Positions 4,586 to 61,905 of a stretch of 64,000 nt of DNA are shown piece after piece. Numbering within the stretch: position 1 is the stretch's first letter; every line of letters starts with the position of its first letter. Below the pieces are notes generated by a model. That model was not told where the DNA came from and did no database searches. It saw nothing but the letters and a program-made list of their open reading frames with translations. Both the position numbers and the translations under genes were made by a program. This stretch comes from Octopus sinensis (lineage: Eukaryota): assembly GCF_006345805.1 (NCBI RefSeq), contig NC_042998.1:138198001-138262000 (forward strand), read 5' to 3'.

Positions 4586-4879
4586 TACTGTAAAAAAAAA
4601 TCGCGATACATTCACAGAGTTTGCTTCTTCAAAGAGAGATCATATCATTTATGATTTTTTAGTCCCAAAACTACAAAACCAGCTTAAACTTTTTGACTTT
4701 TATCTAACTTATAAACTTACTTGACTAATGCTATGCTTAAAATAAACATCTGTCATTTGTCTTTCATTTCAAACCACCACCGACTTAAATGTTTTGTATT
4801 CCTGTTTCATCTACGTGTTCTAAAAGCAGTGCTAGGCAACTTACGCGCGCGCGAGCGCTCGCACACAAACACATACACA

Positions 4880-5045
4880 CATGTATGCGTATATACATAC
4901 ACAATACTCGAAGCGGCAAGTCGCGTATTTGGCGTGGGAGATTATTTATCAAAAATACGATGAATACTATCTCTAACTTTGGAGCCACAACTATCGGCCT
5001 TGTTGAATAAATGGTTAATCTCCAGATGAATTAACTGAGGGAGCC
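4880..5045 (+). repeat. ~160-bp unit, inverted copy at 5432-5585
   Basis: atgtatgcgt..acaatactcgaagcggcaagtcgcgtatttggcgt..aatctccagatgaattaactgagggagcc; its reverse complement is at 5432-5585. Confidence 0.85.
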
Positions 5046-5091
5046 ATTTATTCACGATCGTAGTGATTTTTGACTGAAACTTGAATTTAGC

Positions 5092-5580
5092 ATGCAGAGA
5101 ATAACTACAAACAACATGGCTGGACACAACATCAAAAACAACACAACCGAGGAACAGAATGAAAACAACAGTTCAACAAGTAAACAAATTCTTTCTAGCT
5201 GTAGTTACAGAAGAAACCGTAACTACAAAACTCATTTCTCTTGGAGTTATGAATTGAATAATGATCTATTTAACTGCTACGAAAAAGCGAAACAAAACTC
5301 TGCTGTTGGCTATATGAATCGACTGAAATCATATTGGGACGATCTGCATCCAGAATTAAATCATTTTATTGCGAAGCAACTACGCCAACAAGCAACATTT
5401 GTAGAACATAGAAAGAAGGTTAGTAATAAAAGGCTCCCACAGTTAATTCATCTGGAGATTACCATTTATTAACCATTTTTTCAACAAGGCTGATAGTTGG
5501 AGATAATATTATTTCGATAAATAATCTCCTACGCCAAATACGCGACTTGCCGCTTCGAGTATTGTGTATATAAATACGCA

Positions 5581-5645
<65 letters not shown>

Positions 5646-40435: not shown

Positions 40436-41655
40436 TTATGTGTTCATATTGAGTTGGGGAAGATATTTATTGATAAAAGTTGCCTCTTTATTCATTCTTT
40501 GTTTTACTGAGGTATTCTGTGAACATTGATAGAAGGTGAAAATTAGGAAATTAGGATTAAGATTCCTAGCACACCGATCTATGTGCTCACTAACCTGTAT
40601 CTGTCTGTATTGTGAGTGGCGGATTTGTTCTTTGTGGAGAGTGGTTCTTCGATGGAGTGATATTCCTGTTTGGCCAATATAATTATTACCACACCCTAAG
40701 CATGTAATGGCATAGATTAGATTTTCCGAGGCACAGATGAAATTTGATTTGATCTTAAATATTTCACCTTGTTTAAAGTGGAATTCTGAACCCTCCAAAA
40801 GGTGGGAGCATGTACCACAGTTAGGTCGACCACATTTTTTCACTTTTGATTCTGTTCTTAATGGATATAGTCTTGCGCTGGTTAATATTTTTTTTCAGTG
40901 ATTTAGGTTGCATTTTGCTTTTGATAATTTTGTATGAGCTTAAAATTTTGTTCATTGTTTTATCTCCAGTGAGGAGGGGAAGATTTTGGGTGATAATGTT
41001 GAAAGCTTCGTTGTTTCTAGGGTTATGTGTGGAGATGTACGGGAGTATTTTTAAGTCTGGTTTAGTATTTCGGTTGACTTCCCTTAATGTTCGTATATCT
41101 ATTTCCATAGCTCGTTTAATGCCCTCATTTATTAATGATATTGGGTAATGTCTTTTGATTAGTATTGATCTGAGTTCAAGGAGTCTTCGTTCACGAGTAT
41201 AGGTGTCTGAAACTATGGTACAGATTCTTTTCGCTAGATTATAAGGTATATTAATTTTTATGTGTTTGGGGTGGCATGAGTTGAATAATAGGTATTGTTT
41301 AGAATCTGTGGGTTTATAAAAGATGTCTGTTTCGACGTGGTTATTGACTGTTTTAATTAGGCTGTCAAGAAAAGGGAGTTGTTTACTGCTGTGCTCCATG
41401 GTGAATTGTATGTTGCTATCAATATTGTTAAGCATTATTTTGAAATCGAGGAGTTTGTCCATGCTGTCTTTCCAAAGTATAAAGCAATCATCCGAATACC
41501 TCTTCCAGTTCTCCTTTAAATAGCAATGAAATGAGGTACCATATTTTTGTAGTGATGATTGATATAACTTAAGCTCCAGTGATTGCGAACCTTGTAATGG
41601 GTTACCATTACAAGGTTCGCAATCACTGGAGCAGCTCGGGTTCCAATTGCAGCAC
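40436..41655 (-). pseudogene. Penelope-like RT C-half plus GIY-YIG endonuclease
   Basis: AIGTRAAPVIANLVM; WKRYSDD; LPFLD; TDIFYKPTD..YL.F.SCHP; C..C..C linker; NLIYAITCLGC..YIGQT..R..H; LN terminus; frameshift near 40840. Confidence 0.92.
41573..41632. repeat. Perfect 28-bp-arm hairpin inside the RT coding region
   Basis: gctccagtgattgcgaaccttgtaatgg-gtta-ccattacaaggttcgcaatcactggagc. Confidence 0.95.
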
Positions 41656-50464: not shown

Positions 50465-50883
50465 GCAAAAATAGTATTGACAGTGACTTCGAAGTTTCGA
50501 TAAGCTAAACCATCATTGGACTGTCATTCATTTAAGTTCATCTTAGCCTTATGTAGTTTCTGTTAGGTTATGAATTTTCTAACACACTTCTCCATGTTTG
50601 ATCAATAAACAGTTTCCATACTACGTGGTTACTGCAACCTACCATTTAGCATTATTACCATTCAACGGAACTCAGGTCACCAAAGAGAATTTTTAACTGA
50701 ACAGAGACTATAAAAAGCCATGATGAATTTAAATGAATCACATTCCGCTGATGGTGTAGCTGGCCGAAGTCACTCTCAATATTATTCTTGTCAATATTAT
50801 TCTCTAACAAGAATAATAAATTTGTACTCTACCAAATGTATTGAGTAACCCTTCGATTTAATGTAAAATTGTGTTTATCGTAA
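50465..50883. mobile_element. Hammerhead-like insert family P, copy 2, with inverted arms (50465-50515 / 50748-50790)
   Basis: Minus strand tgacagt-ccaa-TGATGG-N11-GAAACTTCGAAGTC-actgtca; right arm ctgatggtgtagc..cgaagtcactctcaatattattcttg. Confidence 0.65.
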
Positions 50884-51859: not shown

Positions 51860-51911
51860 ATATATATTATATATATTATATATATATTACACACACACAC
51901 ACACATATATA

Positions 51912-52143
51912 CAGGGCTGGCCAAAAGTCACCCGACAGTAAATAAAAAAAAATTCATAAATATTCAATTTTATTTATTATTCCAATTACGAATATTTAAT
52001 AATTGGACGCTGTGAGTTAAAATCACCCTTTTTGCTCAACATTTGTCTATTTATTAGCGAAGTTTCATATAAAATAACTTATTGTTTTAATCTTGGAATT
52101 CAACGAGTTTGATTTACTGTCAGGTGACTTTTAGCCAACCCTG
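51912..52143. mobile_element. Tc1/mariner-type MITE
   Basis: TIRs CAGGGCTGGCCAAAAGTCACCCGACAGTAAAT / ATTTACTGTCAGGTGACTTTTAGCCAACCCTG; TA flanks. Confidence 0.9.
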
Positions 52144-52159
52144 TATATATTCTTTTTTT

Positions 52160-52370: not shown

Positions 52371-53448
52371 CACACGCATACATACATACATACATATATG
52401 TATGTATATATATATATTCGTTTTATGTCAAGTTATGAATAAAAACAATTTAACATTGAACTGAAAGATTTCCAATAGAATATTTACAATAAAAAGGTTT
52501 CGGCTTGCTCGCGTATCACACACACAAACAAACATAATTATTTGAATTTTGTCGTTTTAGTGAGTTTGTATATGACTTGTGCAAATAATACATGCTTGCG
52601 TGCATTGCGTATGTATTTGTACATTCGTGTGAATGTTTTTATATATGTGCAAGCGTTAGTGCATGTATATCTATATGCGTGTCAGTGTACATGTATGTGG
52701 GAGCGAGTGTATGAGCCTACATGTGTATGTTACTGCATTCGTATTCTTGTACGTTTGTGCGTTTGCGTGTACGTGTGTCTGTGTGGGCGTGTGGGCGTAT
52801 TTGCGTGTGCGATGCGCATGTGTATGACCGTTTTCATTCGTTGAACTTTTCGCTCCAGTAGGTCGCTTCCTGGTGACATTTCTCATTGTTACAGCCACAC
52901 CGGGTCGCCTGCCCTTCACACTTTACGACGTATTTATAATGTTTATAGTGTTTAAAGTGTGCCGCCGTCAAAACAACCAGCCAATTGACGATGTTGTAAA
53001 AAATGCTAAAAACTTTACATAAAAGCCAGTCATGACATCTAGACTTCACCTGCAACAATAAACGTTGGTTTAGACACGTCCCCTTTCTCAATGAAATCAT
53101 TTGTCACGCTTTATTCTGCAAATACTCTTTCTTTTCTCTCTTTTCTTTGTTGTCTTTCTTTCGTTTTCTCTTTCTATCTTTCTTTACTGTTTTTTTTTGT
53201 TGATTTTTCCTTCTTTTTCTTTTGTATTGTAGTTTAATTTTATTTGCTGGCTCATTTCCTCCTTTCTTTTCTTCATTTCTTTCTTGTATTTTCAGTTTCT
53301 TTTTTCATATTTTGTTTTACATTATTTCCTTCTCTCACGCACGTTGTTGATCTGTCTCTATCTATCCCTCTGTCTTTCTGCGCGCACGTATATATATATA
53401 TATATTTATAATAAGTGTAGGTATACGAGTGGGTATATATTTATAAAA

Positions 53449-53613
53449 AAGAAGTTTGAAAACGCCACTATATAAGATAAATTTTAATTTTCTTAGAAAT
53501 TTTACATGTTTCGGTTCTTCTTGAAAAGAAGTTCTTTTTCAAGAAGAACCGAAACATGTAAAATTTCTAAGGAAATTAAAATTATCTTATATAGTGGCGT
53601 TTTCAAACTTCTT
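53449..53613. repeat. Near-perfect palindrome, ~82-bp arms, centre 53531
   Basis: aagaagtttgaaaacgccactatataagat...gtttcggttcttcttgaaaagaa-g-ttctttttcaagaagaaccGAAACATGTA... Confidence 0.95.
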
Positions 53614-53660
53614 ATATATATATAATATATATATATATATATTATATATAATATATATAT

Positions 53661-53706
<46 letters not shown>

Positions 53707-53718
53707 TGTATATGTATG

Positions 53719-53752
<34 letters not shown>

Positions 53753-53760
53753 AACACATA

Positions 53761-53797
<37 letters not shown>

Positions 53798-53965
53798 CAC
53801 ACAACACACATTCATATAGTATGACAAAGGGGGAAATGTCGAAACTTCGAAGTCACTGTCAAACTTTACATAATGCAAGTTTAATAAACAAGGCACTCAA
53901 TATACTCTACTGAAAAGTATTGAATAATCCATCATTTTTGTAGTCTTGATATGCAATTTCACATA

Positions 53966-54135
53966 AGGCGGAGAGCTGGCAGAATACTTAACGGAATTTC
54001 CTGTCTTTATGTTCTGAGGAAATTCCCTTTCATCCTTTCGGTGTCGATAAAATAAATCCATTTGAGCACTGGGGTCGATGTCGTCGACTAGTCCCCTCCC
54101 GCCAAAATATCAGGCTTCGTGCTCATTGTAGAAAG
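53966..54135 (+). mobile_element. SINE family B, internally deleted
   Basis: aaggcggagagctggcagaat..cctttcatcctttcggtgtcgataaaat..gagcactggggtcgatg. Confidence 0.8.
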
Positions 54136-54213
54136 TAATGTATAATACAAGCATTATTGACCGCTAACTCCAAAAGTTTTTTTTAATTCTCTCTGTTTAT
54201 TTCCTCGTGTTCC

Positions 54214-54248
54214 CTTCTGTTGAAGAGCATTGGCTCGAAACGTAAAAT
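54214..54248 (+). ncRNA. Hammerhead-like motif, CUGUUGA family
   Basis: CTGTTGA-a-gagc(attg)gctc-GAAACGTA; stem II is conserved with 23782 while the loop differs. Confidence 0.6.
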
Positions 54249-54384
54249 ACTTTCTCACTTTCCCGGGCGTCAGACTAAAGCACATGCTTGTTTGTATATA
54301 TATATATATATATATATATGTAGGTCCCGGGTTGATTCGGGGTTAACCACAGTAAATAAGGTACTCAATACATAGTAGAGTAAA

Positions 54385-54501
54385 ATTAATTTATTATATA
54401 GAAGGAGCTTCTACAGGACTAGAACTGTTTCATTCAAGAAGATTTCTCTTGAATGAAACAGTTCTAGTCCTGTAGAAGCTCCTTCTATATAATAAATTAA
54501 T
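54385..54501. repeat. Perfect palindrome, 55-bp arms, 7-nt loop
   Basis: attaatttattatatagaaggagcttctacaggactagaactgtttcattcaaga-agatttc-reverse complement. Confidence 0.95.
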
Positions 54502-54518
54502 ATATATATATATATATA

Positions 54519-54561
<43 letters not shown>

Positions 54562-54701
54562 AGAGGGGGGAGAGAGAGAGAGAGAGTATTTCACTTAGGA
54601 ATTACGATACTAATAACTTGGTATAGAACTCAATAAGCATATGCCCCAGAACGAAGAGTTAGTCGAATACAGAACAGTAATAAGAAAATGAGATAACAAA
54701 T

Positions 54702-54798
54702 AAATAGATTATTTAAGTACTTCATAAGCTTATAGCTGTTTCTTTATAAGATGCAGTGAAACAGCTCTAAGCTAATGAAGTTCATGTGATAATCATTT
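54702..54798. repeat. Older imperfect palindrome with GAAACAGCT(C/A)TA arms
   Basis: acttcataagcttatagctgtttc-N15-gaaacagctctaagctaatgaagt. Confidence 0.7.
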
Positions 54799-54843
54799 AT
54801 TCCTTCATCATCTCATTTTCTTATATATAATATATATATATAT

Positions 54844-54913
<70 letters not shown>

Positions 54914-54942
54914 TATATATATATATTGTATATATATATTGT

Positions 54943-55303
54943 ATAAAGGATCGTGAGTAAGGCCAAAGCAGTGCGAAGTAAATCACAAGAAAACAAATAT
55001 GTGAATAATGTAGACTTACCTAGTATTCAATATTTCGGGGTTATGACCCGATTTTCAAGAAATTGACGAATGTTGCCAATGTACTGCTTGGCATTCGAGC
55101 CTGAAGCTCCAAAACAAACAGATAGTGAACACACAGAACAACCGTTGACTTACAGTGTCCCCACACGCACATCGACAACATTCGTCAATTTCTTGAAAAT
55201 GGGGTCATAACCCCGAAATATTGAATACAAGGTAAGTCTACATTAATTCACATATTTGTTTTCTTGTGATTTACCTTGCATTTACTTACCCACAATCCTT
55301 TAT
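54943..55303. repeat. Inverted repeat, ~135-bp arms, 87-nt spacer, hammerhead-like motif in each arm
   Basis: Arms 54943-55082 / 55170-55303; plus-strand motif ttc-TTGAAAA-t-gggg(tcataa)cccc-GAAATATT-gaa at 55190-55225. Confidence 0.9.
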
Positions 55304-55324
55304 GTAATATATTCTATGCAATGC

Positions 55325-55525
55325 TTATTTCTTTATTGCCCACAAGGGGCTAAACATAGAGAGGACAAACAAGGACAGACAAAGGGATTAAGTCGATTAC
55401 ATCGACCCCAGTGTGTAACTGGTACTTAATTTATCGACCCTGAAAGGATGAAAGGCAAAGTCGACCTCGGCGGAATTTGAACTCAGAACGTAGCGGCAGA
55501 CGAAATACCGTTAAGCATTTCGCCG
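55325..55525 (-). mobile_element. SINE family B (Nin-domain-like), well preserved
   Basis: Minus strand GTTCTGAGTTCAAATTCCGCCGAGGTCGACTTTGCCTTTCATCCTTTCAGGGTCGATAAATTAAGTACCAG. Confidence 0.85.
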
Positions 55526-55801
55526 CATTTCAATGCTTCTTAGTAATCATTTCATTGTGATATATATGTATGTATGTATGTATTTATGTATGCATGCATG
55601 TATGTATGTATGTATGTATGCATGTATGTATGTATGTATGTATGTATGTATGTATGTATGTATGTATGTATGTACGTACGTACGTACGTATGTATGTATG
55701 TATGTATGTATGTATGTATGTATGTATGTATGTATGTATGTATGTATGTATGTTGTGCATGTATGTATGTATTTATGTATGTATGTATGTATGTATGCAT
55801 A

Positions 55802-56488
55802 CAGGGTGCGTGGGTAAATTGACGCCATTTTATATTTTTCATTTCGTGCATTGTTTTTTTTTTGCCGACTACACAGTTTAGTCGGGTCAGCTGGGCACCG
55901 TCTGTGAGAAAAACAGCAGCACCATGACGCAGTTCACTCCGCCAGAAATTTGGAAACGACATGCTGTATTGCTTGGCTCTCGCGCCGGAAGCTCCAAAAC
56001 AAACAGATGGGGAACACACAGAACAACCGTTGGCTTGCTGTGTCCCCAGAACATGTACCAAGAGTTATAAAAATCAGACATCCAGTCAACATGATGGTGT
56101 TTGGAGTGCTCACTGGTGATGGCCATTTTATGCTTCTATTCATCTTCCTACACGGCCTCAGACACAACACGGAGGCCTGGGTGAAGTGGGTGGCTGTCAG
56201 ACAATTTCTGCGACCACATTACCCCTAACATCTGGCCACCTAACTCCCCAGACTGCAACCTCCTTCATTATTATTTGTAGGGTGCAGTGGAACGAGAGAC
56301 CAACAGAACTCTTTGTAACACCAAAGATGAACTAAAGTCACGGATTATGGCAGCATTAACCAACTTAAGCAAGGAGACCGTCCAGAAGATTTGTAGGAGA
56401 TTCCAAAGTCGTCTGGTAGCAATGGTTGAGATGTCAGTGTTATTTTCATTTTTGCGTAACTCAGACGCTAATGTATTCACCGACCCTG
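55802..56488 (+). mobile_element. Internally deleted Tc1/mariner-superfamily (maT/DD37D-like) transposon
   Basis: TA-CAGGGT...ACCCTG-TA ends; HPVNMMVFGVL..DG; WPPNSPDCN..YY..GAVE..KDELKSRI..CRRFQSRL. Confidence 0.8.
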
Positions 56489-56589
56489 TATATATATATA
56501 TGTATATATGTATATGTATATTTATAATGCATGTATATATATGTGTATATATATATATATATATATTATATATATTATATATATATATA

Positions 56590-56621
<32 letters not shown>

Positions 56622-56669
56622 ATTTATGATGGATATATATATATATACACACACATATATTCTTTCGCC

Positions 56670-56800
56670 AACTCCTTTGTTTGTTTCAATCATTAAGCTG
56701 CGGCCAAGCTGGGGGTCTTGCCTTGAATGGTTTATGAGAAGAAAACGACCTTAGTACTTATTCTAAGTTTGGCCTTTATCCTGGTATTTATCGTGGCGCA
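56670..56800 (-). mobile_element. SINE family A tail fragment
   Basis: ttgtttcaatcattaagctgcggccaagctgg..agtacttatt. Confidence 0.55.
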
Positions 56801-56821
56801 GAAGTATTTTTGACTTCTGTT

Positions 56822-56837
56822 TTTAGTGATGCAGGTG

Positions 56838-56874
<37 letters not shown>

Positions 56875-56893
56875 GAGCACCTGCATCGCTAAA
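56822..56893. repeat. 20-bp inverted repeat enclosing a pure (TA)n
   Basis: tttagtgatgcaggtgctca-(TA)n-tgagcacctgcatcgctaaa. Confidence 0.9.
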
Positions 56894-56894
56894 G

Positions 56895-56932
<38 letters not shown>

Positions 56933-57957
56933 GTTTCCGTTTTGTTTTACTTTTTGTTTCCTGTACTTATTCATTTTGTTTTTCTTTCTTCTTTTCAATG
57001 TTTTTCTTTTTATCTCCTCCCTTTTCTTCTTTAATTCTGTCTTAGACTTTCACTTTATTTCTCCGTTCGTCTTTGTTTCCATTCTTAGCCGGTTTTTTTT
57101 CTGTTTTTACTCATTTGTTTGATTGCTTTTACTATTATTGCTGTTGTATTTGTAATTAAATCGATTACTTTCATAGGGACAAATACTTTGATGAAATTCT
57201 AAGGCATCTTGATAAAAGAAACAGGATTTCTGACGAGAAAGTTTAATATTTTTTCCGTAAAAGGCATTATTAACGAAATGAAGAGGTTTCAAACTAAAAT
57301 TGAAACCGGGACCACAACTCATTTTATCAAGGCCTTTGTCATGTTTTCAGGGTTTTATTTTATTTATTTTTTTTTACTTGGAGGTATCGTAAGCTTTCCT
57401 CTCCCCTAATGGTGCTCACGACACTGAACTAAGATTTACAGATAAATCCATATCCCTCACGAAGATCTTATCATTTGTTGTTGAAAATAGTGACAATTAT
57501 CTCAGATTTCGTGCGTAAAGAATTTTAAAGGTCTAATGTCATAAAAAAAATAAAGAGAGGCGAGTTGGAAATATAAATTGTCATTTGAATCATTTGTGAA
57601 TGATAATAGAGAAATGTTTCTAAATATCTCCACTAACTCTATAAAATTTTTCTCTTTCCCATTATGGCCACCACTACTAACATCGTAGCCATCTTTACCA
57701 TCAGCAATAATTCCCATGACAAACAATGAGGAAGATTAAGTATTGCTGTGTAAAACCTATCCATTTAACAGCTAAATCTCACAATAAACTCTCTAGCTTC
57801 ATCGAAATAGAGAGACATCTACTTAAGTTTCAAATCTTTGGACGGCATGCCTCACAGTAATAATGGAGTGTATAAAGCTGGACCGCAGACCAAATATTTA
57901 ATTAGTTTCTTCCCAGTGAATAAGGTGTTACGTATACACATCGCTTAAAGAGAAGAA

Positions 57958-58410
57958 GTGTTCTCAGGTGGCGAAAAACTACAGCAGTCAGCATATTCAC
58001 GTTCGAATCTATCAGAATGTACTAACATTGAATAGGTACGTTATTTTTGGATTCTCGCTTTTCTGCGTGTACCCCATGAATCATCATTAACTTGGTAGAC
58101 ATGTAGAATCCATCAGAAAATAATTTGCCGATTCCTATAAACAAGAGCTCATGCTCTTGTGAGATTCATTGGTCCGGCGGGGTAGGTTTTACTGAGATGA
58201 CCCACATCGAGGTTGGAACACTGCAGTGTCTCGAAAGCCCCTTACACCAGTGAACCACGTGTATTATGACCACACAATGCTTGCAGGGAGATGTTCTCTG
58301 GTGGCAAAAAATAATAACAGCCAGATATTCACGTTCGAATGTGCCAGAAAGTACTAAGAATAGATACGTTATTGCTTTAATTCTCGCTCTTCTGTATGCT
58401 TCCCTGAAAT
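57958..58410 (+). repeat. Diverged ~120-bp direct repeat pair (57958-58080 / 58291-58410)
   Basis: tgttctc.ggtggc.aaaa...atattcacgttcgaat..cagaa.gtactaa..aatag.tacgttatt...attctcgct occurs twice. Confidence 0.8.
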
Positions 58411-58589
58411 ATTCCAGGATACTGTTTTACTTAAAAAGCTAGTTGATAACAATAACGGCTACAGTTTACAACTACGTAATACGAATATCTTACACTGACA
58501 CAGGGCAAATTTTTTTAGAGTAGTGTATAACAGAAAAGGGGTTTTATCAAACATCATGGCAAAGTTTAAATTCAAAGACCTTACTAATC

Positions 58590-58650
58590 AACACCTTGTG
58601 ATTGGAATTTGGTAGACTGAAACTTCGCGGAACCTTGTTGTCTATGTGTT
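58590..58650 (+). mobile_element. SINE family A core fragment
   Basis: ccttgtgattggaatttggtagactgaaact. Confidence 0.5.
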
Positions 58651-59127
58651 TATATGTCTCTGTCTGTCAGTTTGTCTGTTTGTCATTTTCTTTCTTTTTT
58701 TTTCATTCCTTAGAATAGATCCTCAAAGGAAAACGAATTCCTTAGAATAGATCCTCAAAGGTAACGAAGTCCTATTGTTGGAATTTGGACAACGATAATA
58801 AGTGTTATGTAATGAGCGTTGTACGTACGTATGTATGTATGTATGTATGTATGTATGTATGTATGTATACATACGTACGTACGTACGTACGTATGTATGT
58901 ATGTATGTATGTATGTATGTATGTATGTATGTATGTATGTATGTATGTAGGCATTCTTGTATACATTTATGTGTCCATGTATGTTTGAATGCATGTATGC
59001 AAGTATGAGTATACGTAAAAATGTATGCGTGCATATACATTTGCATAGATGTTATTAAATTCAAATAGACGCAATTGTACACACACACACACACGTACAC
59101 AAACGCACACACACATACACACACACA

Positions 59128-59173
<46 letters not shown>

Positions 59174-59444
59174 GCACAAACATGTACGTATATGTATATG
59201 AACGGCTTAAAATTCTTTCTAGAAGGAAAGAGACAGTTTCTAACATAGAAACAAAGCTCCATCGCTGGAATTTGGATGAAAACAACGAAATATATTATTT
59301 ATGTATACAAACAAACCAGATTAGCCGATTATCAGTGCAGAAGAATCAGATTATCAGAATACCATGGCACAGTGTACCAGATAAACTATATTTACAGAAT
59401 ATCAGATAAAAGAATGTAGAATACCAGATTGGCAGAATGAGAGA

Positions 59445-59590
59445 GTGTCAATGACGTCACTATAAGCAAATAAAATGCAACAACTACTACTAAGCAGATA
59501 CATTCCGTTGTTACATGACATCTGCCTAGTTGTCACTTCAGGGGAAATACTCCAGGGACGACTTGTGTCTTATGATTGGCGGAAATAGTA
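59445..59590. promoter_or_regulatory. Possible regulatory motif cluster (CRE, reverse CCAAT/E2F-like)
   Basis: TGACGTCA at 59452-59459; GATTGGCGGAAA at 59574-59585. Confidence 0.25.
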
Positions 59591-60374
59591 AAGATTTTGA
59601 TAGACTTCAATATTGTCAAAGACATACTGCCGTGCATCGCACCAAGCATTTGACACGTTAGAACTGTCAAAATGTACACTCTTGCCAAAACCAAACAGTT
59701 AGAGATACATCAGTTGTTAGCGTGACCGGAGATACTGAAAGATAAAAACAAACAATCAAAGAAAGAAATGGATATTTTTCTTTTTTATATTTTAAAGACC
59801 TATTTTTCACTCTAGAAAGACATGAGAATTGCGTTTTCCTCCATGCATTTTCGCACTTTCCATATACGACGTGCTGAGAGCTATGTCGAACGTGAAACGA
59901 ATTTAAATGGATAGGAAATACAGAACCAAGAACGTTAGAAGAATATAAAACTAGTAAATGAAAGTAAAATAAACCTTAATTCGAAACCCTGAGAGACGCC
60001 AAAACCACCACTGTTTTATCTGCGCCAACAATCACTATCGACATAGCCACCATTTTCGACATCATCATAACCACTAATGTCTATTCCTCTATTCAACATT
60101 ATTTCCTATCAGCAAAACCGTACCCGCCGCCATCACTTATAACACTGCTTCTTTCATCATCACCTTCATTTATCACCACCCGTCACACACACTTTTACCT
60201 TCACCGCCTCCATTTCTCAACACTATAATTTCACAATTACTACAATCGTATTCACTGTCATCACCAACATTGCACCACCAGTAACAACAACAAAAACAGC
60301 TGTAACAAAGCCACATCAACCGAAAAATAATGGATAATGAATATGCCAAAAATGGATATTCCAAAAATGTTATA

Positions 60375-60449
<75 letters not shown>

Positions 60450-60461
60450 TAATAATAATAA
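60375..60461. repeat. (AAT)n microsatellite
   Basis: Direct observation. Confidence 0.95.
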
Positions 60462-61324
60462 GAAGAAGAAATTAAAAGAGATGTCGCAGAATCTTAAATT
60501 AATATGTAGATAGATGGCGTTGGCTGAAAATCAATTTACGAGCGATTTTCGAGAGAAAGAAACAAACTATTTAATCAATTAATTAAAAATATCAAAAATA
60601 TAAATGTTCAGAAGAAAAATAAAACAAAGACTATGACGAATGTGATAAATATTATGAATTTCATATAGATGTGGCTCTTTTTCTTGTTTGAGAGAAGTAT
60701 TGTGTAAAAATAAATACACACAGGTTAGCAAACAGCTCTATGTTTCTATGTTTGTGTGTGTGAATCATGTCCTTGTATATGTTAAGCACAAATAGCAGGT
60801 AAAACACACAAGACTAGGAATATTTCAAACATGAGTACAAATCTCTCCTCATCAGCTGTTCAATAAAGGTCAGGGCAATTTCGGCATATTAATCAACAAG
60901 ATTGCTCACTTCTGATAGAATTATAACAAATTCCACCAAGGAAAGATTTAATGAAGGCGATGTGAGGGAGCGATTGGCACAACGAGATTGGGCGACAGCA
61001 ATATACGAAAATTTTAAGAACAGTTAGATTACAACAAGCATTGAAATCTGTACGACAAGGATCGTGCGCGCTCACGGTGAGAATAGCAAATTTGAAAATT
61101 TATCTCAAGCCAATCCTTTGTTATTTCAAAAATTAGTAAGCCATCTCGTATTTATGTTTTAACAGCTTTTCTTTCTTTCTTTTTAAGTTAAACATAACAA
61201 GCCTATATACAATATATATATATATATATATAAAATATTATTCGAGACAAAACCACTATTTTGCAAAACAAACAAGGAAAGACTAATTAATACATAAAAT
61301 TTTAATAAATAGTCAAAAAAACCG

Positions 61325-61367
61325 CCACTACAATCGTTTCTTGTCTTGATCGACAATCTTCAGGTGG
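61325..61367 (-). ncRNA. Mirror copy of the hammerhead ribozyme
   Basis: Reverse complement of 61415-61457. Confidence 0.85.
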
Positions 61368-61414
61368 ACTTCCAATAATTCAGTGTCATAATTTGACACT
61401 GAATTATTGGAAGT

Positions 61415-61457
61415 CCACCTGAAGATTGTCGATCAAGACAAGAAACGATTGTAGTGG
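61415..61457 (+). ncRNA. Minimal type I hammerhead ribozyme, canonical core
   Basis: ccac-CTGAAGA-ttgtc(gatcaa)gacaa-GAAAC(gatt)GTA-gtgg; predicted cleavage after A61453. Confidence 0.85.
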
Positions 61458-61905
61458 CGGTTTTTTTGACTATTTATTAAAATTTTATGTATTAATTAGT
61501 CTTTCCTTGTTTGTTTTGCAAAATAGTGGTTTTGTCTCGAATAATATTTTATAATATTTTACTATAAAATCGATTTAATCATAAATCTGATTTTTTCCCT
61601 GTAAATTTGGATTTATTCCCTAATATTTATTATATATATATATATATATATATAGTCAACGAATTCCAGATAAACTATCTACCCCCAGATATATCTCTGC
61701 AAACAATAACTCTCTACTCAAATGGGCTATGGTACCCTCAAAATGACTAATATGAAACATCTTTAAATGTCTTTTCCAGGAGATGCTATTAAGTTAGACA
61801 TGGCTTGGTCCAATGCAGGCCGAATCCTATCCTAGTAGCTATGTATCTAAATATATATATATACGGGGGTGCATGTGTGTACATGCTTCAAAATTATTGT
61901 CAGAG

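What the first reader, a model, noticed from the sequence alone, without database searches (positions are those of the whole stretch)
53449..61553. Fold-back centres coincide with the ribozyme in five unrelated palindromes
Seen: the palindromes centred at about 53531, 54443, 54750, 55125 and 61391 share no obvious sequence. All are head-to-head with a GAAA-stem III-UH half pointing outward (GAAACATGTA, GAAACAG..CTGTA, GAAACAGCTCTA, GAAATATT, GAAACGATTGTA). Three turn within the stem II position, and in the other two the arm starts about 25 nt 5' of the core. Inference: reverse transcription stalls or snaps back at the ribozyme fold and generates MITE-like hairpin retro-inserts. Sequence 5' of the cleavage site is retained, so the templates were uncleaved or circular RNA. 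This could be an undescribed class of ribozyme-anchored palindromic retroelements.
Basis: inference. Interest (0 to 1): 0.8.

Follow-up and report, generated by a model that had tools for sequence, protein, structure and literature searches.

The report
Penelope stubs marking capped mRNA starts
The five mirror-image inserts are real stub copies of Penelope-like jumping genes, and in the two best-sampled families their centres pile up at what is likely the capped start of the element's messenger RNA (intron already removed in one family), just upstream of the hammerhead ribozyme, rather than at a stall inside the ribozyme.

Summary
All five palindromes are real. Each arm is the hammerhead-bearing 3' end of a Penelope-like element (PLE), with the PLE 'tail' on one arm only. 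Head-to-head PLE insertions are known, and this scan noted similar stubs in other genomes.

Centres are not random in two families. In P2, arms stop at a wall 6 nt before the core, 29 nt behind a TATA box, often with an extra non-genomic G. In P5, 37 of 100 arms start in a 23-nt first exon spliced onto the ribozyme exon; long copies keep the 1.8-kb intron. Only 5 of 100 P5 arms start inside the ribozyme. The tail lies on the 5'-shorter arm as often as on the longer (P2: 22 vs 18), against simple snap-back.

Best reading: two cDNAs run off the capped 5' end of the sense mRNA and are joined head to head. P1 and P4 show no sharp wall; the window's P1 and P3 copies are plain truncations. No RNA data confirm the start sites. 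This is not a new element class, but it is genomic evidence on an open question about PLE templates.

The parts
53405..53613 (.). P1: head-to-head PLE stub; left arm (minus) carries the ~45-nt tail, arms turn inside stem II at ~53531
   Evidence: family is the 3' pLTR of an RT + GIY-YIG ORF (L472)
53551..53560 (+). P1 right arm: 3' half of a minimal hammerhead (U3-A8 variant in relatives)
   Evidence: PMC4209133
54320..54501 (.). P2: head-to-head PLE stub; left arm carries the ~75-nt tail; arms start 2 and 11 nt inside the core, i.e. 8-17 nt inside the family wall
54455..54474 (+). P2 right arm: stem III and cleavage triplet
54593..54824 (.). P3: older head-to-head PLE stub; left arm carries the tail; turns in loop II/stem II, 70-90 nt inside the family's likely start site
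54758..54769 (+). P3 right arm: stem III and cleavage triplet (one substitution)
54925..55322 (.). P4: head-to-head PLE stub with foreign filler; right arm carries part of the tail
   Evidence: family is the 3' pLTR of an RT + GIY-YIG-like ORF (L473)
55086..55163 (+). P4 filler: piece of a Tc1/mariner-like repeat family (family name by recall), similar to the copy at ~55803-56490
   Evidence: 76 of 99 columns identical
55190..55227 (+). P4 right arm: minimal hammerhead, U3-A8 variant with an unpaired base before stem II
   Evidence: PMC4209133
61229..61632 (.). P5: young head-to-head PLE stub, 160-nt arms, right arm carries the ~80-nt tail
61386..61405 (+). P5: 20 of the 23 nt of exon 1, joined directly to exon 2; in long genomic copies a ~1.8-kb GT-AG intron lies at this junction
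61415..61457 (+). P5: complete type I hammerhead (core at 61419, predicted cut after 61453); mirror copy on the minus strand with core at 61363

Best explanation
These are stub insertions of Penelope-like retrotransposons in which, most likely, two cDNAs primed from opposite strands of a (TA)n target ran to (or near) the capped 5' end of the element's sense mRNA and were joined head to head by short sequence overlaps, so the centre likely marks the transcription start, which sits 6-36 nt upstream of the hammerhead. Shown here: fixed outer ends with a tail on one arm; a sharp upstream wall for arm starts in P2 and P5; a spliced exon1-exon2 junction in short P5 arms against an intron in long ones; a TATA box 29 nt before the P2 wall; an extra non-genomic G at the wall; tails on either arm. 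From published biochemistry of another PLE (PMC11167929): both strands are nicked and extended, reverse transcription starts internally at two sites that bound the tail, uncleaved RNA is the substrate, and product length follows the RNA 5' end. Inferred: priming in the 5' pLTR copy of the mRNA gives the short spliced stubs; priming in the 3' copy gives long, mostly intron-containing, randomly truncated arms; the extra G is the copied cap. The window's P1 and P3 copies are ordinary truncations that fall in the ribozyme because it lies close to the priming sites.
For: P5: long copies read promoter-exon 1-GT...~1.8 kb...AG-exon 2. L299 and L483 hold the whole element with an RT/GIY-YIG-like ORF behind hammerhead and tail. 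Of 100 arms recovered around the first 100 listed of 842 exact matches, 37 start in spliced exon 1, none of these beyond its first base, 5 start in the ribozyme and 24 are long and intron-containing (p 3e-11 and 4e-7 against uniform). With promoter context present, 95 of 100 listed copies go on into the intron. P2: 1275 short palindromes genome-wide, control 0. 12 of 29 head-to-head pairs have gaps of 15-35 nt, 0 have 36-199 and 17 have 200 or more. 11 of 30 tail-selected arms start at -6/-5 and none clearly at -7 to -30 (p 1e-14). A TATA box lies at -29/-28 in most upstream contexts, with the same spacing by eye in two other subfamilies. Solo copies next to an AT repeat have G before the wall in 22 of 47 places, where the genomic base is T or C (p 1e-3 against 0.25). 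P3: all 5 non-genomic starts at -28 carry a G. The tail is on the 5'-shorter arm in 22, the longer in 18, equal in 21 of 63 P2 palindromes. An extra G marks cap copying at full-length L1 insertions (PMC11702581, passage). D. virilis Penelope has a 46-nt exon 1 and an intron ending at helix I (PMC2377424, PMC4209133).
Against: No RNA evidence for the start sites or the splice: one search had contigs only, of runs merely guessed to be RNA. P1 and P4 show no sharp wall in 30 loci each. No ORF-bearing source was found for P2 or P3. In P5 the tail favours the longer arm 14 to 6. The extra G is weak in P5: 51 of 100 complete exon-1 copies have it, but only 11 cannot be borrowed from the partner arm, and only about 2 of 13 copies next to TA repeats have it (counted by eye). 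16 of 100 P5 arms cluster at +42 to +57, just 3' of helix I, and three arms start at the predicted cut site (L452, L005, C18:31889428). Two spliced copies run at least 90 nt upstream of the start site (L477, L480). The two arms of one palindrome nearly always share subfamily variants (by eye), which snap-back would also give. The P2 wall also looks like a splice acceptor, so a 2-nt first exon is not excluded.
Confidence: 0.75

Rival explanations
1. One reading: reverse transcription stalls at the ribozyme fold and the cDNA snaps back on itself to make the second arm.
For: P2 arm starts do fall in and at the edge of the ribozyme. 16 of 100 P5 arms cluster at +42 to +57, near the base of the predicted outer helix. 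Arms share subfamily variants.
Against: The P5 peak lies in a spliced exon upstream of the ribozyme, and the interior is depleted. The predicted monomer folds are not the hammerhead and are no more stable than shuffles (z -0.1 to 0.6). A copied arm cannot gain a tail that its template lacks, yet the 5'-shorter arm has the tail in 22 of 40 P2 and 6 of 20 P5 cases. The commonest P2 junction has no loop (4-nt overlap in 22 of 63).
Confidence: 0.08
2. Ordinary random 5' truncation plus selection: short palindromes must be centred near the ribozyme because it lies within 20-130 nt of the priming sites.
For: Fits the window's P1 and P3 copies. In P1 only 5 of 100 listed matches' pairs lie within 500 nt, with scattered gaps, and most arms run 50-300 nt past the core. 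P4 starts are spread.
Against: Cannot give the sharp walls, the empty gap class in P2, the splice junction or the extra G.
Confidence: 0.12
3. Self-priming on an antisense transcript, as proposed in PMC3846280 to explain head-to-head palindromes and intron retention.
For: Long P5 copies do retain the intron. It is the published interpretation for rotifer PLEs.
Against: Short P5 arms carry a sense-strand GT-AG splice junction and stop at the sense start site. A host gene captured between P5 arms is intronless and in the sense of the arm.
Confidence: 0.03
4. DNA MITE-like elements that move as a palindromic unit.
For: Hairpin shape, high copy number, TA-rich flanks.
Against: Outer ends are asymmetric (tail on one arm), the centre differs from copy to copy, and the same arms occur solo, in tandem and as 3' ends of RT-bearing elements.
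Confidence: 0.02

Closest known systems
Endonuclease-bearing Penelope-like elements with inverted pLTR and tail (Arkhipova et al. 2013, PMC3846280; Craig et al. 2021, PMC8557442; passages read)
   Same: Head-to-head 5'-truncated copy, tail on one end, insertion into microsatellites, initiator-like and TATA-like motifs in the pLTR, capture of host sequence between pLTRs.
   Different: Here very many copies are stub-only palindromes whose centres form a sharp wall. They include spliced, G-tipped copies, whereas those papers stress intron retention and one proposes an antisense self-primed template. Tails here are 45-80 nt rather than 30-40.
Anolis Poseidon PAc in vitro mechanism (Frangieh et al. 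2024, PMC11167929; main text parts 1-2 of 4 read)
   Same: Two internal reverse-transcription start sites bounding the tail, nicking and extension of both strands, AT-rich targets, uncleaved RNA as template.
   Different: That work does not address the head-to-head junction, caps or splicing; here these are read from genomic copies only.
Drosophila virilis Penelope promoter and 5' UTR intron (Schostak et al. 2008, PMC2377424, passages; Cervera and de la Pena 2014, PMC4209133, parts 1-2 of 4)
   Same: Start site, short exon 1, intron ending at or near helix I of a minimal hammerhead.
   Different: The P5 exon 1 is 23 nt and its intron ~1.8 kb, ending 12 nt before the core; P2 appears to start directly at helix I behind a TATA box.
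Non-LTR retrozymes (bioRxiv 10.64898/2026.07.22.740005; part 1 of 5 and passages)
   Same: Non-coding, PLE-derived, type I hammerhead.
   Different: Retrozymes are head-to-tail tandem units thought to pass through circular RNA; these are head-to-head stubs ending at a linear 5' end.
Cap-derived extra G at full-length L1 insertions (PMC11702581, passage)
   Same: Non-genomic G at the 5' end of complete cDNAs, usable as microhomology.
   Different: Here the 5' end joins a second cDNA rather than target DNA.

Membership tests
Endonuclease-bearing Penelope-like elements | RT plus C-terminal GIY-YIG ORF next to the pLTR | tested here: inconclusive
   Found for P1 (L472; RVT_1 E 0.006; a fragment similar by eye to an ORF with GIY-YIG E 8e-7), P4 (L473; GIY-YIG E 0.065) and P5 (L299; no Pfam hit, Atlas score 0.93 to an RT cluster). 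Not found for P2 or P3.
Endonuclease-bearing Penelope-like elements | pLTR carrying a minimal type I hammerhead | tested here: met
   features as in PMC4209133
Endonuclease-bearing Penelope-like elements | Inverted 5'-truncated copy and partial tandems | tested here: met
   (L473, L483)
Endonuclease-bearing Penelope-like elements | [quoted passage not shown] | tested here: met
   61 of 63 P2 and 24 of 25 P5 palindromes; seen in P1, P3, P4
Endonuclease-bearing Penelope-like elements | Insertion into AT-rich or microsatellite targets | tested here: met
   flanks
Endonuclease-bearing Penelope-like elements | Spliceosomal intron in the pLTR, retained in genomic copies | tested here: met
   P5 only: retained in 95 of 100 listed promoter-bearing copies, removed in the short class. 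Not shown for P1-P4.
Minimal hammerhead ribozyme | Conserved core boxes, helix I and II, short palindromic helix III | tested here: met
   complete in P5 in the window and in relatives of P1-P4; no hammerhead among the 150 Rfam rows shown of 334
Minimal hammerhead ribozyme | Self-cleavage | not testable with these tools
   monomer folds do not predict the active form
DNA MITE | Symmetric fixed terminal inverted repeats and an invariant body | tested here: not met
   asymmetric ends, variable centres
DNA MITE | Fixed-length target-site duplication | tested here: inconclusive
   flanks are (TA)n, where a duplication cannot be read
Non-LTR retrozyme | Head-to-tail tandem hammerhead units | tested here: not met
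   the five inserts and most short relatives are head-to-head
Non-LTR retrozyme | Circular RNA intermediate | not testable with these tools
   indirectly disfavoured by the fixed, G-tipped 5' ends

The most novel reading that the evidence does not exclude
The stubs are natural 5'-RACE products. The PLE protein primes twice on the capped, spliced, uncleaved sense mRNA at its 5' pLTR, and the two run-off cDNAs anneal to close the insertion. Long copies are primed in the 3' pLTR, whose intron is rarely spliced. This one scheme would explain the head-to-head repeats, the one-sided tail and the long-standing puzzle of PLE intron retention without an antisense template or circular RNA, and it would let PLE promoters be mapped from DNA alone in any animal genome.
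Probability: 0.55. Interest if true: 0.7.

Novelty: new variant of a known kind. Interest (0 to 1): 0.55.

Why it matters
How PLEs make inverted repeats and keep introns is stated as unresolved (PMC3846280, PMC8557442, PMC11167929). If the reading holds, the template is sense, capped, spliced and uncleaved mRNA, and the inverted arm is a second cDNA rather than a fold-back. That predicts exact start sites and splice junctions that one CAGE or long-read experiment can test. It also warns annotators that abundant 'MITE-like' hairpins in such genomes are PLE stubs.

Tried and rejected
Rfam scan: the rows shown were microsatellite and hairpin noise, with no hammerhead among 150 of 334. Search for an ORF-bearing P2 source: two tail-end patterns found only insertions into repeats; a supposed ORF remnant inside a long P2 copy proved to be another repeat family; no conserved splice donor fitting a tiny P2 exon 1 was found in 17 long loci. 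Pfam did not recognise the frameshifted P5 ORF pieces. A refined mapping of arm starts for P1, P3, P4 and a second P2 set was not completed, so those families rest on the coarser BLAST mapping, which is unreliable for the diverged P3 copies. A main peak at the ribozyme cut site was looked for and not found (three arms only). Literature searches found no report of spliced or cap-tipped PLE palindromes. The 2003 and 2005 papers on PLE introns were not retrieved and no supplements were read; either may bear on novelty.
Full report
Setting. The window lies at G000:C2:138198001-138262000 in a 2.72-Gb animal genome rich in TA and CA repeats. Positions below are relative to the first base of the hammerhead core (C3 or U3 = 0). 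P1-P5 are the palindromes centred near 53531, 54443, 54750, 55125 and 61391.

All five are significant inverted repeats in five separate repeat families with hundreds to thousands of copies: exact-pattern counts are 248 for P1, 2533 for P2, 135 for P4 and 842 for P5, and 82 within two mismatches for P3. Relatives show the full minimal type I hammerhead in each family, including the U3-A8 variant and the unpaired base before stem II that PMC4209133 describes for Penelope-like elements (PLEs). Three turn in core/stem II/loop II and two start 24-33 nt upstream.

What they are. One arm ends at a fixed point and runs into (TA)n; the other carries a 45-80 nt extension. This holds for 61 of 63 P2 and 24 of 25 P5 palindromes. 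It is the inverted-pLTR-plus-tail unit of PLEs (PMC8557442, PMC3846280). ORF fragments with RT and GIY-YIG features lie on the same strand upstream of the P1 and P4 motifs (L472, L473), and a whole, frameshifted element was found for P5 (L299, L483). No source ORF was found for P2 or P3. Centres differ between copies, so the palindrome is rebuilt at each insertion and is not a MITE.

Are the centres non-random? In two families, yes. For P2, among the first 100 listed matches, 12 of 29 head-to-head pairs have gaps of 15-35 nt, none 36-199 nt and 17 have 200 nt or more (gaps read by eye). There are 1275 short P2 palindromes, control 0. In 63 of them (gap-limited by the pattern, so partly selected) 58 of 126 arms start at -6 or -7 and one beyond. 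In 30 copies chosen by the tail end alone, 11 start at -6/-5, none clearly at -7 to -30, 5 are long, 8 start in the ribozyme, 5 further 3', and one is ambiguous. For P5, 17 of 32 pairs have gaps of 226-278 nt, 6 are shorter, 1 is 347 and 8 exceed 1 kb. For P1 and P4, 30 loci each show spread starts and no sharp wall.

What the wall is in P5. Long copies read: upstream sequence, a 23-nt segment starting in an initiator-like motif, a consensus GT donor, about 1.8 kb, an AG acceptor, 12 nt, then the hammerhead. Short palindromes have the 23-nt segment joined directly to the acceptor position, so they are copies of spliced RNA. Of 100 arms, 37 start in this exon (two more by eye) and none of them beyond its first base; 24 are long and intron-containing; 7 start at -14 to -5; 5 inside the ribozyme; 16 at +42 to +57; 8 beyond +60; one is unclear. 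Against a uniform null the exon excess has p 3e-11 and the ribozyme deficit p 4e-7. Where the upstream promoter context is present, 95 of 100 listed copies continue into the intron and 5 are spliced; two of those run far upstream, so the 3' pLTR is occasionally spliced. D. virilis Penelope has the same layout with a 46-nt exon and a 75-nt intron ending at helix I (PMC2377424, PMC4209133).

What the wall is in P2 and P3. The P2 wall is the 5' base of helix I and lies 29 nt behind a TATA box; two other subfamilies keep this spacing by eye despite different intervening sequence. Solo copies adjoining an AT repeat have G before the wall in 22 of 47 places, C in 9, T in 12 and A in 4, while the genomic base is T or C (counted by eye). 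In 543 copies with this G, the 100 listed show no common sequence further upstream. In P3, all 5 starts at -28 in a non-genomic context carry a G, and TATA-like motifs lie about 28-33 nt upstream in 4 of 7 contexts printed. An extra G is the recognised trace of cap copying at full-length L1 insertions (PMC11702581). In P5 the signal is weaker: 51 of 100 complete exon-1 copies have G, 11 of them unambiguously (by eye).

Snap-back or two cDNAs. A snapped-back copy cannot hold a tail its template lacks, and the template strand must be the 5'-longer one. In P2 the tail is on the shorter arm in 22 cases, the longer in 18, equal in 21; in P5 6, 14 and 4. Most junctions show overlaps of 1-8 nt, and the commonest P2 junction is a 4-nt self-complementary overlap with no loop. 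The predicted monomer folds are not the hammerhead and are no more stable than shuffles. In vitro, a lizard PLE nicks and extends both strands, starts at two internal RNA sites that bound the tail, uses uncleaved RNA, and gives products whose length follows the RNA 5' end (PMC11167929). Together these favour two cDNAs joined at their 3' ends. Against this, arms nearly always share subfamily variants (by eye), which needs one RNA or one active source at a time.

Model. The mRNA starts in the upstream pLTR, 6-36 nt (after splicing) before the ribozyme, and so holds the priming region twice. Priming in the 5' copy gives a 60-250 nt run-off cDNA, capped and spliced; two such cDNAs give the short palindromes. 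Priming in the 3' copy gives long arms that keep the intron and break off at random. The steps of priming, cap copying and joining are inferred; the sequence footprints are shown. An intronless copy of a host gene between P5 arms, whose parent lies in 13 pieces on C21, shows independently that this machinery copies spliced sense mRNA. This conflicts with the antisense self-priming proposal of PMC3846280, at least for the short class.

Uncleaved templates and a non-random link to the ribozyme are right. The minor P5 cluster at +42 to +57 (16 of the 29 arms ending between -4 and +100; one search tested 15 of 29, p 5e-6, window chosen after seeing the data) may be a stall before helix I, trimming of ribozyme-cut RNA, or an effect of the T run there. 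Three arms start at the cut site. The window's P1 and P3 copies are plain truncations, its P2 copy lies 8-17 nt inside the wall, P4 has a filler from another repeat, and P5 is the typical spliced run-off product.

Novelty. The elements belong to a known kind, and earlier notes of this scan reached the same filing for shark-type genomes. Nine literature searches and two note searches found no account of spliced, cap-tipped PLE palindromes; older subscription papers and all supplements were not seen. No RNA evidence was obtained.

Noticed in passing
L297/L298, G000:C1:~78173600-78179341: About 5.7 kb of intronless coding sequence of a large RCC1-repeat protein (HERC1-like by recall; Pfam RCC1) sits between head-to-head P5 arms. 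The 2.46-kb part searched matches a parent on C21 in 13 pieces at 99-100%, and a second partial intronless copy lies on C8.
   Followed up: partly
window 55086-55163 and ~55803-56490: The P4 filler derives from a Tc1/mariner-like family (name by recall) with a copy 700 nt away, but at 76 of 99 identical columns it is probably not from that copy.
   Followed up: partly
window 51908-52144: A true DNA-MITE-like element with ~30-nt symmetric terminal inverted repeats and TA flanks, a useful contrast.
   Followed up: no
window 50466-50790: Probable sixth head-to-head PLE insertion (73% arm identity) whose centre lies about 100 nt from its hammerhead-like motif; a related piece occurs near 53840.
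   Followed up: no
window 41573-41632, 56822-56893, 4862-5604: Other palindromes without a hammerhead seen at the centre: a near-perfect 60-nt hairpin, one centred on (TA)n, and inverted arms enclosing the start of a retroelement-like ORF.
   Followed up: no
L293-L299, L481-L483: The P5 3' region contains ~830-bp tandem repeats, so exon 1 and its donor occur twice (three times in two loci), giving alternative promoters.
   Followed up: partly
L292, L456: P5-like arms share a different sequence upstream of -13/-14, the splice-junction position, suggesting another subfamily or first exon.
   Followed up: no
L341-L370: An unrelated abundant repeat (1643 first-look candidates) with ~870-bp tandem units, also inserted in (TA)n and nested in P2 copies; retrozyme-like by appearance.
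   Followed up: no
P4 family, window ~55232: A consensus splice donor lies just 3' of the P4 hammerhead, and the hammerhead begins only about 65 nt after the ORF stop in L088.
   Followed up: no
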